A stretch of 64,000 bases of DNA from NCBI GenBank assembly GCA_016861265.1, contig BOLA01000001.1, positions 395,569-459,568 of the forward strand, read 5' to 3'. Below are positions 14,163-56,855 of this stretch, in pieces (position 1 is the first letter of the stretch; each line of letters begins with the position of its first letter). Made by a program: the position numbers and the translations under genes. The notes beneath the pieces are model-generated. The model did not search any database, was not told the DNA's origin, and worked only from the letters and a program-made list of their open reading frames with translations. The DNA comes from Patescibacteria group bacterium (GTDB taxonomy: Bacteria; Patescibacteriota; Dojkabacteria; J137).

Positions 14163-14183
14163 GCCTCCGAATTATCGGAGGCG
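14163..14183 (-). terminator. intrinsic terminator of the GC-rich islet-1 gene
   Basis: Hairpin gcctccga-atta-tcggaggc lying 6 nt downstream (minus sense) of the TGA stop of 14189..14548. Confidence 0.55.
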
Positions 14184-14188
14184 TCTCC

Positions 14189-14548
14189 TCACAGCCTAGG
14201 ATTAGATGTTATTTCTGGCTGAGGCGGTACTCTTCGCCTTCTGCGGAAATGCTCCTTTCGATCCCAGAGACCGAATATTGCATGACTAGCCACCGCAATC
14301 AGAAAGCCCCACATTGTGAGATTGCCAATGTTCATGTATATCTCACTTCCGGTTTCGAAGTGTACGATATAGCAACCCCAGCCTCCGCCTGCGAACACCA
14401 GTATCGACAATACGCTTATCAGAACAGAATAGTGATCATCCCGTTCCATAAAGCGGATTACGACTTGTGCTACGAAGATGATAACCGCGACTACGGACAA
14501 CACAGGTGCAATATATGCCGTAGCTTTAATTAGCCAAACTAGCTGCAC
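14189..14548 (-). CDS. small 3-TM membrane protein with Arg-rich C-terminus, encoded in a GC-rich islet; function unknown
   Basis: GTG start 5 nt downstream of a strong SD GGGAGGTG. GC-rich codon usage of about 48% GC against about 33% background. Three hydrophobic helices, then an RRRRRVPPQP tail. Followed by its own hairpin terminator. Confidence 0.6.
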   Translation of the reverse strand: MQLVWLIKATAYIAPVLSVVAVIIFVAQVVIRFMERDDHYSVLISVLSILVFAGGGWGCYIVHFETGSEIYMNIGNLTMWGFLIAVASHAIFGLWDRKEHFRRRRRVPPQPEITSNPRL

Positions 14549-14845
14549 GATACACCTCCCAGGTTTACAATGAGCAGTAGCTAATTATAACATTGGTTGG
14601 CTATTTAAAGCCTCTTACAGAATTAATGCTATAATAAATCCGAATAAAAGCAGAAGTTTGATAATAATTAGCACAAAAACTTCAGTAAAAAGCCTAAGAG
14701 AACTGATTTATATTGAATTGCCGAAGAAATTCAACTATAAAAAATCCCTCAGAATATCTTCTTTTTAACGAATAGTTTGTTAATTACCCTATAACTTGGA
14801 ATTGAATAACTTTTGCAACTAAATTAAAATACATTAAAAATAAAT

Positions 14846-44581: not shown

Positions 44582-45898
44582 TTAGATCTTAATTTCAACC
44601 TGTTCGCCGCTTTTCATATCTTTTAGTAGGTACTTCCCTTCTGCCAGTTCATTTTCCCCTAGTATAACAACATAATCTACACTCATTTTATTTGCCTGCT
44701 CAAGAGCCTTTCCCATCCTTTGAACATCTAAACCTACTTTAACAACATTAGTTTCACTTTTCCTTAGTATCGAAGCAAGTTCCAAAATCTTATTGGTTAA
44801 TTTTTCATCAAGCACAGGTAAGTAGTAAGACTTGTACTCACTTGTTGAATTTTTAAATAATCCGTATTCTTCTAAGAATATTTTGGTTGTCTCATCACCG
44901 GGTGCGAAGCCAACTGCAGGAAATGATTGGCCTCCAAAAATACCTGCTAGCCCGTTGTACCTACCACCACCGAATAAAGATCTAAAACTATCTTCAGTCT
45001 TTAACTGCCCTTTTCTTTTTAGATAGTCGCGCCTATCGTAAACTTCAAAGACCATACCGTCGTAATAATCAAAACCTCGAACCATTGATGGGTTATACTT
45101 TATATATTCGCCCAAACCTAGGGTCTCAAGTTTATTAGCAATCTGCATTAAATCTTTAATGCCTTCATTCTCTTTTAAATAATTTTGATAAACATACTCA
45201 AAAGCATCTTCTTCAAGGTTTAAAAAGTCTAGTAAGATTGTTGTATTGTCAATTTTTGCTCCCACTTCCTGTTTTAATCTTAAAACCAATTCATCGTTGT
45301 TTATCTTTCCGAATTTATCTAGTATCCTTGTTGCCTCTGCTACCTTAGAGACATCTGCTTTTAAGAAATCAGTTACGATTGCTTCTATTAATCTTCGATC
45401 GTTATAGTAAACAATAAATTGATCTTTGGTAGCACCAAATTCCTTCATTATTTCTATAGCAAGTTGAAGTATTTCAACGTCGGCCATTAATGAATTGCTC
45501 CCAAAAATATCACAGTTTAGCTGCCAGAATTCCCGATTTCTACCCTTCTGAGGTTTTTCATTTCTTAGGAAGTTGGCAATAGAAAATAGTCGTAAAGGTT
45601 TAGGTGAACTTTCATAAATTCTACTCACCATTCTAGTTACTGAAGGAGTCATTTCGGGCCTTATTGCTAATTCCCGTCCTGCTCTGTCAGTCATTACCAT
45701 TAATTCCTTTCCTCCCACATCTTCACCGGATTTAGCTCTGTAAACATCCGCGGATTCTATTACAGGAGTAAGATATTCTTCATAACCGAAACTCAGGCAT
45801 ACCTTACGCCAAGTATCAAAGATAAATTTTCTCTTTTTATACTCTTCAGGAAACCAATCGCTTGTGCCCTTTGGGGGCATATTTGATATTGTATTCAT
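44582..45898 (-). CDS. hisS: histidine--tRNA ligase
   Basis: N-terminus PKGTSDWFPEE...FGYEEYLTPVIE and motif 2 ELAIRPEMTPSVTRMV are typical of class IIa HisRS. A C-terminal anticodon-binding domain is present. Confidence 0.85.
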   Translation of the reverse strand: MNTISNMPPKGTSDWFPEEYKKRKFIFDTWRKVCLSFGYEEYLTPVIESADVYRAKSGEDVGGKELMVMTDRAGRELAIRPEMTPSVTRMVSRIYESSPKPLRLFSIANFLRNEKPQKGRNREFWQLNCDIFGSNSLMADVEILQLAIEIMKEFGATKDQFIVYYNDRRLIEAIVTDFLKADVSKVAEATRILDKFGKINNDELVLRLKQEVGAKIDNTTILLDFLNLEEDAFEYVYQNYLKENEGIKDLMQIANKLETLGLGEYIKYNPSMVRGFDYYDGMVFEVYDRRDYLKRKGQLKTEDSFRSLFGGGRYNGLAGIFGGQSFPAVGFAPGDETTKIFLEEYGLFKNSTSEYKSYYLPVLDEKLTNKILELASILRKSETNVVKVGLDVQRMGKALEQANKMSVDYVVILGENELAEGKYLLKDMKSGEQVEIKI

Positions 45899-45930
45899 AT
45901 TTTCAATTTTAACATTTAATAATTAAGTAA

Positions 45931-46002
45931 TAAAAAACCCTCCTTTTCATGGAGGGTTCTAATTTATATAGATATAGAAAAGCACCCTCTTTAAAGAGAG
46001 TG
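45931..46002 (-). promoter_or_regulatory. hisS 5' leader with tandem hairpins: upstream stem (cacucucuuu/aaagagggug) and terminator-like stem-loop (aacccucc-augaaaa-ggaggguu + U run) about 35 nt before the hisS AUG; candidate attenuator
   Basis: Read in the hisS sense, an 8-bp GC hairpin followed by UUUUUUAUU sits just upstream of the start. The 3' arm of the upstream hairpin (agagggug) can pair with the terminator 5' arm (acccuc). Confidence 0.4.
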
Positions 46003-46109
46003 AATATGGTTTATCAATGTATTTACGAATAATCTTTTCACATGCATATTATAGCACTATATTAGAGTTTTCTGGTAAAATCCTGAACTGGTAACTAAGG
46101 AGGTAACTT

Positions 46110-46331
46110 ATGAGATTAATGCTTGTTCAACGAAAAGTGGGTGATCCGACTTTGGAACAGATAGAGCGTAACCCACAAGGTCATGTCGAGCCTGTCGCTA
46201 TTATCGTCGTTAATACCGAACTTACCGATGCCGAGATGAACGAGTTAGGACAATCTGTCCTTGCAATTATTGGCGATAAGCCAGTAAATACCGAGGAACT
46301 AAGAGATTTTTACTCAATGTTCATGGGTTAG
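46110..46331 (+). CDS. small hypothetical protein (73 aa) in GC-elevated islet 3
   Basis: Strong SD AAGGAGGT 7 nt upstream of the ATG. GC-rich codons of about 45% GC. Followed by a perfect hairpin terminator. Confidence 0.5.
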   Translation: MRLMLVQRKVGDPTLEQIERNPQGHVEPVAIIVVNTELTDAEMNELGQSVLAIIGDKPVNTEELRDFYSMFMG

Positions 46332-46336
46332 TCTCG

Positions 46337-46362
46337 GCAGGGCGGAGTTTACTCCGCCCTGC
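46337..46362. terminator. intrinsic terminator, perfect 12-bp GC-rich stem
   Basis: gcagggcggagt-tt-actccgccctgc, which lies between the small ORF on the plus strand and the convergent rsmB-like gene on the minus strand. Confidence 0.65.
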
Positions 46363-46369
46363 ACTAAAC

Positions 46370-47317
46370 TTAGAGTTTTACTATCTTCGCAACATAAAAA
46401 GCGGTAAATTCCTCGGTTGGTAAAACTCGTACAGTTTTTAATAAGTCATTATTAAATTTCTTATTTCTATATTCAAGTTTTCCGGATTGAAGCGAATGCA
46501 GATTTAAATTAATATCCATTAATTTGGCATTACTATTCTTCTTTAAGAACCAGTTCACAACTTCTTCATTTTCTTCAATACTGTAAGTACACGTTGAGTA
46601 AATTAAAGTTCCATTTCTTTTAAGCATTTTAAATGCAGAATTTAGCAATCCTTTTTGGAGTTTTGAGATATCTTTTGCATTCGATAGTTTCCACTCTTTA
46701 AGTGAATCGTGTTCGTTAATATTTATTTTTGATTCGGTTGTACATGGTACGTCTACCAAAACTTTGTCAAAATAATTATTATATTCCGGTTTTATAAAAA
46801 CTAATCTATTAGCATCCGCATTAAAAACATTTACATTTACTACACCATTCTCATTTAAATTTTCCTTCAACTTGAAGAATCGATTTCTATTTTTTTCAAC
46901 CGCGGTTACAAAAGATTGGTTATTTGTTAGTGCTTGAATTAAAGATGTCTTACTTCCAGGAGAAGCACACATATCCAAAATTTTTTCATTTGGTTTGGGG
47001 TTTAGTTCAATAACGGGCAAGGCACTTGAAACTTCTTGAATATATATTAAATGTTTACTAAACGCTTCGGTCCTTGATAACGGAATGGATTCCTTAGTAA
47101 CCAAATAAAAATTACTAACTTCTGTTTGTTTAAAAACAATACCTTCACGGCTTAGCATTTCTAGAGACCGTGCTTTATTTGCATCTATCAAAGTATTAAT
47201 TCTAAAAGTTTTTGCTCTGTTAATTGAGTGTGTTGCAAAAACTTTTTCAAAATCAGAATTATATATTTCTAATAACTTGTTCTTAAAACTTTCTAATTTA
47301 TCTTCGTAGGATTTCAT
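46370..47317 (-). CDS. NOL1/NOP2/Sun-family RNA m5C methyltransferase (RsmB/RsmF-like)
   Basis: DMCASPGSKTS (SAM motif I), DVPCTTE and YSTCT (catalytic Cys motifs) are typical of RsmB/Nop2. Confidence 0.75.
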   Translation of the reverse strand: MKSYEDKLESFKNKLLEIYNSDFEKVFATHSINRAKTFRINTLIDANKARSLEMLSREGIVFKQTEVSNFYLVTKESIPLSRTEAFSKHLIYIQEVSSALPVIELNPKPNEKILDMCASPGSKTSLIQALTNNQSFVTAVEKNRNRFFKLKENLNENGVVNVNVFNADANRLVFIKPEYNNYFDKVLVDVPCTTESKININEHDSLKEWKLSNAKDISKLQKGLLNSAFKMLKRNGTLIYSTCTYSIEENEEVVNWFLKKNSNAKLMDINLNLHSLQSGKLEYRNKKFNNDLLKTVRVLPTEEFTAFYVAKIVKL

Positions 47318-47480: not shown

Positions 47481-47654
47481 ATGGCAGTTGCAAAAAGAAA
47501 AACTGTTGCAAAGAGAAAACCAGCTGCAAAAAAAGCAGTTAGAAAGGTTGTTGCAAAGAAGAAGACTGTTGCTAAGAGAAAGCCAGCAGCTCGAAAGACT
47601 GTTGCTAAGAAGGCAACTAGAACAACAGCTAAAAGAAAAACTTCAAGAAAATAA
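47481..47654 (+). CDS. lysine/alanine-rich basic repeat protein (histone H1/Hc1-like nucleoid protein), 57 aa
   Basis: The ATG at 47481 gives MAVAKRKTVAKRKPAAKKAVRKVVAKKKTVAKRKPAARKTVAKKATRTTAKRKTSRK*, a stretch of imperfect tandem repeats. The stop is followed at once by a strong terminator. The ORF track offers a different frame at 47488..47793 that runs through the terminator. Confidence 0.5.
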   Translation: MAVAKRKTVAKRKPAAKKAVRKVVAKKKTVAKRKPAARKTVAKKATRTTAKRKTSRK

Positions 47655-47680: not shown

Positions 47681-47708
47681 AAAAAATCCCTGCTCGCAGG
47701 GATTTTTT
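47681..47708. terminator. bidirectional intrinsic terminator
   Basis: aaaaaa-atccctg-ctcg-cagggat-tttttt hairpin with an A run and a T run. Confidence 0.65.
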
Positions 47709-56172: not shown

Positions 56173-56275
56173 CTTCTGACTGTAAGAAGTAGTGAAATTA
56201 TTATATCAGAAGAAATTTTTTGAATTAAAACTGTAAAGGTAGCAGCTAACAACAATTGTTTGTTATTAATTGCTA

Positions 56276-56298
56276 CCTTCGGAAAGCCGATCCGAAGG
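56276..56298 (-). terminator. GC-rich hairpin terminator of islet-2 gene A
   Basis: ccttcgga-aagccga-tccgaagg, 17 nt downstream (minus sense) of the stop at 56315. Confidence 0.5.
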
Positions 56299-56314
56299 TG
56301 CCGTTCACGAAGAA

Positions 56315-56785
56315 CTAGCGCTGGGTAAAGATCACGCTGTGGTGGTCGCCGATCCCTGCGGTTGCCACAATGGGCAAACCGTTAAAGGTGGCAAACACGC
56401 CGTAGGCTTTACCCTTAAGAACCATTTGATCACCAACAAACCATCCGACACGCTGGAAGGTTGACCCTCCCGCAGCTGCGGTTGTGTATGTTCCGAATTC
56501 GCTTCCGCGAACCGAGTAGTTTTGTCCGTCAATGGTAACCCAGCCAGCATTAGCTAACTGGTTTGCGACCATTGCGGTTCCAAATCCTTTGGAACCGCAA
56601 TGAATCCCGGCGACCATCAGAACAATTATGAATACAAGGTAGACCATTCCATCGTGCCGTCCGGCAAACTTTCCCAGAATCAGAACGAGAATAGTACCAA
56701 TTCCCAATGTCGCCGCCACTGCAGCATACTCCAGACCGAGAAACATGAATGCTCCCGCTGTGAGTGCTGCAACCAGAACGAACAA
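56315..56785 (-). CDS. membrane-anchored hypothetical protein (156 aa in ORF-track frame) in GC-rich islet 2; start ambiguous / possible frameshift
   Basis: GC-rich codons of about 50% GC. Two N-terminal TM helices, then a Gly/Ala/Thr-rich domain. The track start is TTG. An SD-led ATG (AGGAG-N8-ATG at 56817) opens a 45-aa ORF in a neighbouring frame that overlaps this gene's start. Confidence 0.5.
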   Translation of the reverse strand: MFVLVAALTAGAFMFLGLEYAAVAATLGIGTILVLILGKFAGRHDGMVYLVFIIVLMVAGIHCGSKGFGTAMVANQLANAGWVTIDGQNYSVRGSEFGTYTTAAAGGSTFQRVGWFVGDQMVLKGKAYGVFATFNGLPIVATAGIGDHHSVIFTQR

Positions 56786-56855
56786 AACGCAACGAATCTC
56801 TTACCTGTGCTGCTCATTGCCTGTACTCCTGTGATCAATTAATCCTAGATCGTAT

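What the first reader, a model, noticed from the sequence alone, without database searches (positions are those of the whole stretch)
46085..46365. Micro-islet 3: SD-led 73-aa ORF with a perfect 12-bp GC hairpin, same signal grammar as islets 1 and 2
GC is about 45%. The ORF has an AAGGAGGT Shine-Dalgarno sequence 7 nt before the ATG. It is followed by the perfect hairpin gcagggcggagt-tt-actccgccctgc.

The product (MRLMLVQRKVGDPTLEQIERNPQGHVEPVAIIVVNTELTDAEMNELGQSVLAIIGDKPVNTEELRDFYSMFMG) is soluble and acidic, with no recognisable family.

It sits between hisS and an rRNA methyltransferase. This is the third case in one window of a small gene carrying expression signals that are foreign to the host genes.
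Basis: seen in the sequence. Interest (0 to 1): 0.55.

Follow-up and report, generated by a model that had tools for sequence, protein, structure and literature searches.

The report
Orphan small gene beside hisS
The 73-codon reading frame is a real, selectively maintained small-protein gene found only in one narrow group of ultra-small (CPR, Dojkabacteria) bacteria; its ribosome-binding site and G+C-rich make-up are kept by selection in a genome whose other genes lack such sites, so they are not traces of a recent foreign import.

Summary
The ORF is at 46110-46331 (+), AAGGAGGT lies 5 nt (not 7) before the ATG, and a perfect 12-bp hairpin follows the stop.

- **Host:** a 33.5% GC Candidatus Dojkabacteria genome. 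Only 1 of 54 genes has an SD core, and many carry a -10-like box 6-7 nt before the start codon (leaderless style).
- **It is a real gene:** close alleles give pN/pS of about 0.09. More distant orthologs are saturated at synonymous sites but have pN 0.31-0.50.
- **Signals are conserved:** every copy keeps an SD, a G+C-rich hairpin of different sequence, and GC3 of 0.41-0.54 against 0.15-0.30 in neighbouring genes. All but one keep a TGnTAnAAT promoter.
- **Distribution:** the family exists only between an RsmB/F-like methyltransferase gene and hisS. It is present in five lineages, duplicated in one, and absent from six relatives including the basal ones. This fits one old insertion plus later losses. 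A 10-bp direct repeat flanks the unit in this species.
- **No known relatives:** nothing matched in Pfam, NCBIfam, PHROGs, PADLOC, PDB, BFVD or 1.84 billion protein representatives.

Verdict: a lineage-restricted accessory small acidic protein of unknown role, expressed as a leadered, SD-dependent unit. A "foreign micro-islet" is only partly supported. A probable His-codon leader-peptide attenuator of hisS lies next to it.

The parts
46062..46071 (.). Promoter-side copy of the 10-bp direct repeat (TTAGAGTTTT on +; AAAACTCTAA on -). It lies between the two back-to-back -10 boxes.
   Evidence: exact 10/10 repeat with spacing 308. It coincides with the indel boundary against L002, L076 and L091. 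It is 9/10 in L098/L099 and degenerate in L083/L088.
46073..46081 (+). Predicted extended -10 promoter of the small gene (TGGTAAAAT). The inferred transcription start is near 46088, giving a 5' UTR of about 22 nt.
   Evidence: Sequence. It is conserved as TGGTAAAAT (L082), TGGTAGAAT (L083), TGATAGAAT (L088) and TGATAAAAT (L097 copy B). This is a consensus match only; no transcript data.
46097..46104 (+). Shine-Dalgarno sequence AAGGAGGT, 5 nt before the ATG.
   Evidence: An SD is retained in every family member: AAGGAGGC, GGGAGGT, GAGGAGGT, GAGGGGGT, AAAGGAGG and AAGGGGGTG. Host genes: 1 of 54 with an SD core.
46110..46331 (+). ORF73: a 73-aa acidic (pI 4.5) soluble protein with a predicted beta-alpha-beta-alpha-alpha fold. 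It belongs to an orphan family.
   Evidence: only same-clade homologs. (pN/pS 0.09 between close alleles; pN 0.31-0.50 against saturated pS). (AF2 pLDDT 89). (no fold match). (no family).
46337..46362 (.). Perfect 12-bp G+C-rich hairpin between the convergent stop codons of ORF73 and the RsmB/F-like gene. It is probably a U-tract-less terminator or a 3'-end stabiliser.
   Evidence: -25.1 kcal/mol. Orthologs have hairpins at the same place with different sequences: L083 AGGCGGAGCGG/CCGCTCCGCCT and L088 AGTGGCGAA/TTCGCCACT, plus both L097 copies. There is no T run on either strand.
46370..46379 (.). Second copy of the 10-bp direct repeat. It contains the last two codons and the stop (K-L-TAA) of the RsmB/F-like gene on the - strand.
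46072..46369 (+). The whole 298-bp unit (promoter, SD, ORF, hairpin). Relatives without the gene lack it.
   Evidence: Alignments. The intergenic spacer is 471 nt here. It is 151 nt (L002), 188 nt (L076), 169 nt (L085), 212 nt (L089) and 219 nt (L095/96) in relatives that lack the gene.

Best explanation
ORF73 is a real accessory gene restricted to one genus-level clade of Candidatus Dojkabacteria (CPR/Patescibacteria). It forms a self-contained monocistronic unit of about 300 bp.

- **Promoter:** a host-type extended -10 promoter sits back-to-back with the hisS leader promoter.
- **Transcript:** it gives a short leadered mRNA.
- **Translation:** a full-strength Shine-Dalgarno site recruits the ribosome. 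This is needed because the mRNA is leadered, whereas most genes of this genome start 6-7 nt after their -10 box and have no SD.
- **3' end:** a strong G+C-rich stem-loop 5 nt after the stop ends or stabilises the transcript. It also insulates it from the convergent RsmB/F-like gene.

The unit entered the rsmB/F-hisS spacer once, in an ancestor of the clade. A 10-bp duplication of the target (AAAACTCTAA) is still visible in this species. It has since been inherited, lost in some lineages and tandemly duplicated in one.

The product is a small acidic alpha/beta protein with no catalytic signature. It evolves 2-6 times faster than its neighbours but under clear purifying selection. By inference only, it most likely acts by binding another macromolecule (a modulator, immunity-type or conflict-type role) rather than as an enzyme.

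Shown: gene reality, distribution, signals, selection. Inferred: promoter use, terminator function, direction and mechanism of insertion, biochemical role.
For: **Gene reality**
- Between close alleles (window vs L098/L099), ORF73 has 12-13 synonymous and 4 nonsynonymous differences. That is pS 0.26, pN 0.023, omega about 0.09, similar to the neighbouring rsmB/F gene.
- Against L082, the differences by codon position are 15/9/28.
- Orthologs of 73-78 aa keep their length and motifs (EPVA, EEMN-LGQ-VL, IGDKPV-T, Y).
- No antisense ORF of at least 40 aa overlaps it.

**Restricted family**
- 5.8 billion clusters and 1.84 billion representatives give only same-clade hits.
- Nothing was found in JGI metagenome contigs or IMG/VR, phages, or 1.09 Mb of related CPR loci.

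**Locus and history**
- The gene is always between RsmB/F-like and hisS: window/L001/L098/L099, L082, L083/84, L088, and L097 with two copies.
- It is absent at the same spot in L002, L076, L085, L089, L095/96 and L091.
- NJ trees place the carriers in derived positions and the basal taxa among the non-carriers.
- The 10-bp direct repeat lies exactly at the indel boundary.

**Signals maintained**
- The SD and hairpin are present in all copies, with different hairpin sequences; the extended -10 box is recognisable in all but L097 copy A.
- GC3 is 0.41-0.54 against 0.15-0.30 in neighbours despite saturated pS.

**Host grammar**
- 1 of 54 genes has an SD core. TTAA[AG] peaks at -14/-13 in 16 of 54 genes.
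- Mixed leaderless and RBS-led starts are described for 'group C' genomes (PMC6028130).

**Protein**
- pI 4.2-4.5 in the orthologs.
- AF2 pLDDT 89.1, pTM 0.68, topology beta-alpha-beta-alpha-alpha.
Against: - There are no expression data. The promoter, transcription start and terminator are consensus or structure matches only.
- The hairpin has no U tract, so it is not a canonical intrinsic terminator.
- The host's 16S anti-SD could not be examined.
- The trees are NJ on 2-3 proteins. Deeper nodes have only 57-82% bootstrap support, so the number and direction of gain and loss events is uncertain.
- A 10/10 repeat surviving from an insertion older than synonymous saturation is surprising, and it is degenerate in L083/L088.
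- ORF73 distances between window, L083 and L088 are nearly equal (pN 0.31-0.33) and do not follow the host tree. That leaves room for transfer between lineages.
- The AF2 model rests on a 4-sequence alignment.
- The proposed binding role has no direct support.
Confidence: 0.72

Rival explanations
1. Recent foreign micro-islet. A small gene was newly imported from a G+C-richer, SD-using donor, perhaps on a tiny mobile cassette that duplicates 10 bp of target. Its SD, hairpin and GC content would be unameliorated donor traits.
For: - A 10-bp direct repeat lies at the exact indel boundaries.
- The unit is absent from six related genomes at the same site.
- GC3 and SD are atypical for the host.
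- Two other G+C-rich small genes with hairpins occur in the window.
- ORF73 distances do not track the host tree closely.
Against: - Orthologs occupy the same locus in lineages saturated at synonymous sites, yet all keep high GC3, an SD and a hairpin. The traits are therefore maintained, not decaying.
- The promoter is host-type.
- There is no second copy in the window.
- No homolog was found anywhere outside the clade, including viral and metagenome collections.
- There are no terminal inverted repeats and no recombinase nearby.
Confidence: 0.1
2. Ancestral native gene. The small gene was present in the common ancestor of all these Dojkabacteria. It was deleted repeatedly, for example by slippage between short direct repeats, during genome streamlining.
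For: - Losses clearly happen: L088 carries the gene while its closest relatives L089 and L096 lack it.
- Deletion between direct repeats would also place repeats at the boundaries.
- The signals and composition are stable, as expected for a long-resident gene.
Against: - It needs at least 4-5 independent losses, including all basal taxa sampled (L002, L076, L091). The alternative needs one gain and 2-3 losses.
- More distant Dojkabacteria (L093, L003) lack either the gene or the synteny.
- In L002 and L091 the rsmB/F stop abuts the hisS promoter with no scar.
Confidence: 0.14
3. Not a protein gene. The G+C-rich stretch would be a structured RNA, for instance a T-box or other leader of hisS on the opposite strand, or an sRNA, and the ORF would be accidental.
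For: - G+C-rich islands in A+T-rich genomes are often RNA genes.
- hisS is commonly T-box regulated in other phyla (general knowledge).
- The region lies upstream of hisS on the - strand.
Against: - Rfam gave no hit at gathering score and no T-box even at E<=10.
- The substitution pattern is that of a coding sequence: omega 0.09 and a third-position excess.
- The ORF length and SD are conserved.
- The hisS leader with its own promoter lies downstream of the unit and is present in genomes that lack the unit.
Confidence: 0.02
4. Orphan antitoxin or immunity protein. A small acidic protein that neutralises a toxin encoded elsewhere or delivered by competitors, which would explain the fast evolution, presence/absence variation and tandem duplication. 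This is a guess about function and is compatible with the best explanation.
For: - The protein is small and acidic (pI 4.2-4.5).
- It evolves 2-6 times faster than its neighbours.
- Six amino-acid polymorphisms occur within one species.
- Copy number is 0, 1 or 2 among close relatives.
Against: - There is no adjacent toxin gene; the unit is monocistronic.
- No PADLOC, Pfam or NCBIfam antitoxin or immunity family matched.
- No structural match was found.
- omega is about 0.09, so there is no sign of positive selection.
Confidence: 0.1

Closest known systems
Taxonomically restricted (orphan) small accessory genes in bacterial genomes
   Same: There are no homologs outside a narrow clade. The protein is short and evolves fast but under purifying selection. 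Presence is patchy among close relatives at one conserved chromosomal spot.
   Different: It carries a complete and unusually strong private set of expression signals that differ from the rest of the genome. It also keeps a deviant codon composition over long divergence.
Leadered, RBS-led minority genes in genomes dominated by leaderless transcription (GeneMarkS-2 'group C', PMC6028130)
   Same: Most first genes have a -10 box 6-8 nt before the start codon and no SD, while a minority have a 5' UTR with an RBS 5-8 nt before the start. ORF73 fits the minority class.
   Different: Group C was described mainly for Actinobacteria and Deinococcus-Thermus. Here the host is an A+T-rich CPR bacterium and SD use is almost nil (1 of 54 genes), even for genes inside operons.
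Non-autonomous insertion elements with target-site duplication (MITE-like) and integron gene cassettes
   Same: A short insert of about 300 bp is flanked by a 10-bp direct repeat. Like an integron cassette (ORF plus attC), it is one small ORF followed by a palindromic hairpin.
   Different: There are no terminal inverted repeats, no second copy, and no integrase or transposase. The hairpin is a 26-nt perfect palindrome rather than an imperfect attC of at least about 55 nt with extrahelical bases. The unit has its own promoter, which integron cassettes normally lack.
Intrinsic (Rho-independent) terminators
   Same: A stable G+C-rich stem-loop lies immediately after the stop codon, placed between convergent genes. 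It is conserved in position but not in sequence.
   Different: There is no U tract on either strand. The host's own terminator-like hairpins are flanked by A and T runs.

Membership tests
Protein-coding gene under selection | Excess of synonymous over nonsynonymous change in the proposed frame | tested here: met
   Close alleles: pS 0.26, pN 0.023. Distant orthologs: pS 0.77-0.97, pN 0.31-0.50. Differences by codon position are 15/9/28.
Protein-coding gene under selection | Conserved ORF length and start context in orthologs | tested here: met
   Orthologs are 73, 74, 75 and 78 aa (70 aa for the paralog), all starting MR/MK-hydrophobic with an SD 4-6 nt upstream. The L082 copy is truncated or frameshifted.
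Shine-Dalgarno-led translation initiation | Purine-rich GGAGG core 4-9 nt upstream of the start codon | tested here: met
   AAGGAGGT at 46097-46104 with a 5-nt spacer. Conserved in all family members.
Shine-Dalgarno-led translation initiation | Complementary CCUCC tail in the host 16S rRNA | not testable with these tools
   There is no rRNA in the window or in any fetched locus.
Intrinsic terminator | G+C-rich stem-loop directly downstream of the stop | tested here: met
   12-bp perfect stem, -25.1 kcal/mol. Structure conserved with sequence change in L083, L088 and L097.
Intrinsic terminator | Run of U immediately after the stem | tested here: not met
   The stem is followed by ACTAAACTT on + and CGAGACTAA on -. 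The terminator scan does not list it.
Mobile insertion (MITE/IS-like) | Empty site in related genomes | tested here: met
   L002, L076, L085, L089, L095/96 and L091 have the rsmB/F stop 8-47 nt from the hisS leader promoter or leader ORF.
Mobile insertion (MITE/IS-like) | Target-site duplication | tested here: inconclusive
   The repeat is 10/10 in window/L001 and 9/10 in L098/99. No clear repeat remains in L083/L088. Deletion between repeats could give the same picture.
Mobile insertion (MITE/IS-like) | Terminal inverted repeats | tested here: not met
   The repeat finder on 46030-46410 shows no inverted pair joining the two ends.
Mobile insertion (MITE/IS-like) | Multiple copies, or copies in unrelated contexts | tested here: not met
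   Single copy in the window. Every copy found is in the same rsmB/F-hisS spacer. None in viral or metagenome scans.
Integron gene cassette | attC site (imperfect palindrome of about 55-140 nt with R''/R' core sites) and a nearby integrase or cassette array | tested here: not met
   The hairpin is 26 nt and perfect. The adjacent GTTTAGT does not fit GTTRRRY. No integrase or array was found in 20 kb.
Type II antitoxin / immunity protein | Adjacent cognate toxin gene, or a match to a known antitoxin or immunity family | tested here: not met
   The unit is monocistronic. No hit in Pfam, NCBIfam, PADLOC or PDB profiles.
T-box or other known RNA family | Covariance-model match | tested here: not met
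   No hit at gathering score in the whole window. Only chance-level hits at E<=10 in 45850-46420, and no T-box.

The most novel reading that the evidence does not exclude
The three G+C-rich, SD-led, hairpin-terminated small genes of this window would be a distinct class of minimal, self-expressing gene cassettes circulating among Dojkabacteria. In this reading they insert with about 10 bp of target duplication, or are swapped by flanking homology. They keep a 'universal' expression kit (extended -10, strong SD, strong hairpin, higher GC) because they must work in changing hosts, and they encode new-fold conflict or interaction proteins.
Probability: 0.08. Interest if true: 0.7.

Novelty: new member of a known kind. 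Interest (0 to 1): 0.32.

Why it matters
- **A marker for accessory genes.** In an SD-poor, apparently leaderless CPR genome, a strong SD plus high GC3 can flag long-resident accessory small genes rather than fresh imports. That is useful for gene calling: the public record for a strain with the identical protein starts this gene at M4, giving 70 aa, and one ortholog was not called at all.
- **An open question about codon composition.** It is unclear why such genes keep a deviant codon composition after synonymous sites are saturated.
- **A candidate for the biology of uncultivated episymbionts.** The protein is a confident-looking but unmatched small fold.
- **The neighbouring hisS leader.** It may be a leader-peptide attenuator for an aminoacyl-tRNA synthetase in the CPR, which deserves its own follow-up.

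Tried and rejected
- **T-box or other RNA upstream of hisS:** Rfam at gathering score and at E<=10 gave nothing relevant.
- **Known protein family:** Pfam, NCBIfam, PHROGs, PADLOC and PDB sequence profiles gave no hits. phrog_4266 scored only E 0.02.
- **Single-sequence AF2 model:** poor (pLDDT 59.5). A 4-sequence alignment gave pLDDT 89.
- **More homologs:** back-translated pattern scans of JGI metagenome contigs and IMG/VR, and a DNA pattern for the GQxVLxxIGDKPVxT motif, all gave zero. tblastn against phages gave none.
- **P0003:** this 714-aa repeat protein (E 3.5e-5 to residues 6-27) was judged a short repetitive-motif match, not homology.
- **Second copies or terminal inverted repeats of the unit:** none found.
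- **Integron attC reading of the hairpin:** rejected on length and core-site mismatch.
- **Antitoxin (Phd/YefM-like) resemblance around 'EPVAII':** recalled from memory and not supported by any profile.
- **Anti-SD check:** impossible, because no 16S is held in any sequence fetched.

Full report
**1. What is in the sequence**

- The ORF runs 46110-46331 on the + strand.
- AAGGAGGT occupies 46097-46104, leaving a 5-nt spacer to the ATG.
- After the TAG stop and five bases comes a perfect palindrome. Its arms are 46337-46348 and 46351-46362 with a 2-nt loop. RNAfold gives -25.1 kcal/mol.
- The ORF is 42.8% GC (GC1 0.58, GC2 0.30, GC3 0.41) in a window of 33.5% GC.
- The flanking genes are hisS (44582-45898, -) and an RsmB/F-family rRNA methyltransferase (46370-47317, -). 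ORF73 is divergent from hisS and convergent with the methyltransferase.

**2. The host and its normal gene-start signals**

- The closest genomes in GTDB are Candidatus Dojkabacteria (CPR/Patescibacteria) MAGs.
- Of 54 confidently placed genes in the window, only one has GGAG, GAGG or AGGA at -18..-4.
- A TTAA[AG] motif starts at -14 or -13 in 16 of the 54 genes. That places a TAAAAT-like -10 box 6-7 nt before the start codon.
- This is the signature used to infer leaderless transcription. Genomes of that type are described as also holding a minority of leadered, RBS-led genes (PMC6028130).
- The host's terminator-like hairpins are flanked by A and T runs, for example 47681-47708. The ORF73 hairpin has the most G-C pairs of all 13 perfect hairpins and no T run.
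- It is not correct for the promoter. The candidate promoter TGGTAAAAT (46073-46081) is the same kind of extended -10 box that precedes hisS and its leader.

**3. It is a real gene**

- A 99.1% identical strain (L001) carries it.
- Other alleles of the same species (L098, L099) differ from the window by 12-13 synonymous and 4 nonsynonymous changes. That gives pS 0.26, pN 0.023 and omega about 0.09. The methyltransferase next door is comparable (omega about 0.08), and hisS is far lower.
- Seven allelic proteins exist in public data. One version annotated as 70 aa, starting at M4, lies on a 1.11-Mb NCBI contig. M4 is Ile in other alleles and the SD precedes M1, so M1 is the start.
- More distant copies were found by walking from HisS homologs to their contigs:
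  - L083/L084: 74 aa, 52% identical.
  - L088: 78 aa, 49% identical, not called as a gene in that assembly.
  - L082: 58% identical over 45 residues, then a frameshift or truncation.
  - L097: two tandem paralogs of 75 and 70 aa.
- Between these lineages synonymous sites are saturated for all genes (pS 0.65-0.97). ORF73 has pN 0.31-0.50, against 0.05-0.11 for hisS and 0.12-0.22 for the methyltransferase. It is fast-evolving but constrained.

**4. Distribution and history**

- Every copy lies in the same spacer, with the same orientation.
- The spacer is empty in L002, L076, L085, L089, L095/L096 and L091. There the methyltransferase stop lies 8-24 nt from the hisS leader's -10 box, and 38 nt from the leader ORF in L089.
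- NJ trees of HisS+RsmB/F(+SLOG-methyltransferase) give this order: L002(-), L076(-), then L097(++) and L085(-), then ((window+, L083+), (L096-, (L089-, L088+))).
- The simplest history is one gain after the split from L002/L076, then 2-3 losses and one duplication. An ancestral gene with 4-5 losses is less parsimonious but not excluded. Deeper nodes have 57-82% support.
- In the window the 298-bp unit (46072-46369) is bracketed by an exact 10-bp direct repeat at 46062-46071 and 46370-46379. The second copy contains the methyltransferase's last two codons and its stop.
- From the observed rate of chance 10-mer matches (about 35 between the unit and both strands of the window), I estimate such a repeat within +/-10 nt of both boundaries at roughly 3 in 10,000.
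- The repeat is 9/10 in L098/L099 and unrecognisable in L083/L088.
- There are no terminal inverted repeats, no second copy and no recombinase.

**5. Why 'foreign signals' is only half right**

- If the SD, hairpin and GC content were leftovers from a donor, they should have decayed over a divergence that saturated synonymous sites. They have not.
- All five divergent copies keep an SD at 4-6 nt. All but L097 copy A, whose promoter I could not identify, also keep a TGnTAnAAT box.
- All copies keep a G+C-rich hairpin right after the stop, with different sequences (window GCAGGGCGGAG, L083 AGGCGGAGCGG, L088 AGTGGCGAA).
- All keep GC3 of 0.41-0.54, against 0.15-0.30 in hisS and the methyltransferase. 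Both C and G are roughly doubled at third positions.
- These features are therefore either selected in situ or refreshed by exchange among these lineages. The near-equal ORF73 distances between window, L083 and L088 leave the second option open.

**6. The protein**

- It is acidic (pI 4.2-4.5 in the orthologs, 8.0 in the divergent L097 paralog). It has no signal peptide or transmembrane segment by inspection.
- AF2 with a 4-sequence alignment gives pLDDT 89.1 and pTM 0.68. The topology is beta(2-9)-alpha(15-25)-beta(26-34)-alpha(40-54)-alpha(61-72).
- Foldseek finds no match in PDB or BFVD.
- Profile searches of Pfam, NCBIfam, PHROGs, PADLOC and PDB sequences are empty.
- The exhaustive HMMER search of 1.84 billion representatives returns only clade members and one repetitive false friend.
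- Its function is not determined.
  - The size, charge, rate, polymorphism (six variable residues within the species) and copy-number variation point, as inference only, to a binding or modulator protein such as an immunity-type or interaction factor.
  - There is no neighbouring partner gene and no sign of positive selection.

**7. Verdict**

This is a real, lineage-restricted accessory small gene with a private leadered, SD-dependent expression unit. It was inserted long ago into the rsmB/F-hisS spacer of one Dojkabacteria clade. It is a new orphan family rather than a new kind of system, so interest is modest.

**8. Side finding: a possible hisS attenuator**

Directly next to the unit, on the - strand (46056 to 45899), lies a conserved hisS leader:
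- An extended -10 box (TGCTATAAT) comes first.
- A start codon follows exactly 6-7 nt later.
- A 16-17-codon ORF has 2-3 His codons near its end in most of the relatives examined. The window has KRLFVNTLINHIHSL; others have NHHHSR, NHHHSL, NHHSSL, NHHHLP, NHHDLP, HLHLH or MHFHLL.
- A hairpin holds the stop codon in its loop. It has 7 pairs, two of them with compensatory changes.
- One or two terminator hairpins with T runs follow.
- The 3' arm of the first hairpin can pair with the 5' arm of the terminator. Constrained folding switches to this alternative in L091 and L085 but not in the window.

This looks like a His-codon leader-peptide attenuator for hisS. It is conserved despite synonymous saturation and is not in Rfam.

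Noticed in passing
window 45899-46056 (- strand); also L002, L076, L082, L083, L085, L088, L089, L091: A conserved hisS leader is present in eight of the nine relatives examined. L097 (HisS 83% identical) has no such leader.
- An extended -10 box (TGCTATAAT, 46056-46048).
- A leaderless start (GTG at 46041).
- A 16-17-codon ORF (46041-45991) with 2-3 His codons near its end in nearly every relative that has the leader.
- A hairpin at 46002-45983 with the stop codon in its loop and two compensatory pairs.
- A terminator at 45960-45934 followed by a T run.

The 3' arm of the first hairpin is complementary to the 5' arm of the terminator. It looks like a His-codon leader-peptide transcription attenuator of hisS in a CPR bacterium. 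Rfam has no match, only Phe_leader at E 0.06. Constrained folds support the switch in L091 and L085 but not clearly in the window.
   Followed up: partly
whole window (54 genes): The genome is almost free of Shine-Dalgarno sites (1 of 54 genes). A TTAA[AG] motif peaks sharply at -14/-13, meaning a TAAAAT-like -10 box 6-7 nt before the start codon. hisS itself has TGTTAAAAT at 45914-45906. This suggests widespread leaderless transcription in this Dojkabacteria genome.
   Followed up: partly
window 14163-14570 (- strand): 'Islet 1': a 119-aa predicted membrane protein at 14189-14548.
- GC 0.47, GC3 0.47.
- GTG start preceded by GGGAGGTG.
- Followed by the hairpin GCCTCCGA-TAAT-TCGGAGGC (14163-14182).
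- No Pfam match.
- It lies between an amino-acid-kinase-family gene and RNase J.

Whether sister genomes have it was not checked.
   Followed up: no
window 56275-56840 (- strand): 'Islet 2': a 156-aa hydrophobic ORF at 56315-56785.
- GC 0.52, GC3 0.52, and no Pfam match.
- Followed by a 9-bp hairpin at 56275-56299, with a 15-bp perfect hairpin inside the ORF at 56570-56602.
- The only SD-like site (AGGAG near 56827) precedes an ATG at 56816 in a different frame, so the true start or frame is unclear and a frameshift is possible.
   Followed up: no
L097 1690-2500: In this relative (HisS 83% identical) the spacer holds two tandem paralogs of the small gene (75 aa, pI 4.2; 70 aa, pI 8.0). Each has its own SD and hairpin. 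The His-codon leader of hisS is absent, leaving only the proximal TGCTAAAAT box.
   Followed up: partly
L082 529-767: The copy in this 767-nt contig stops after 51 codons. Similarity to the family (LG-) continues in the +1 frame and then diverges and runs off the contig. This is either a pseudogene, a different C-terminus or an assembly error.
   Followed up: partly
L088 vs L089, about 110 nt upstream of hisS: The 3' half of the hisS leader is 100% identical between these two genomes, although their proteins are only about 91% identical and L089 lacks the small gene. This suggests recent recombination or very strong constraint at this spot.
   Followed up: no
window 47481-47654 (+) and 47681-47708: A 57-aa Lys/Ala/Arg-rich protein (weak HC2 histone-like match, E 0.016) is conserved next to the methyltransferase in all relatives. 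It is followed by an A-run/T-run-flanked 13-bp bidirectional terminator hairpin.
   Followed up: no
L099 (ENA ERZ4567617): One contig carrying an allele of the gene comes from an assembly whose record name contains 'Hadza-Nepal ... MoBio_Fiber'. That hints that this Dojkabacteria species occurs in human-associated (stool?) metagenomes.
   Followed up: no
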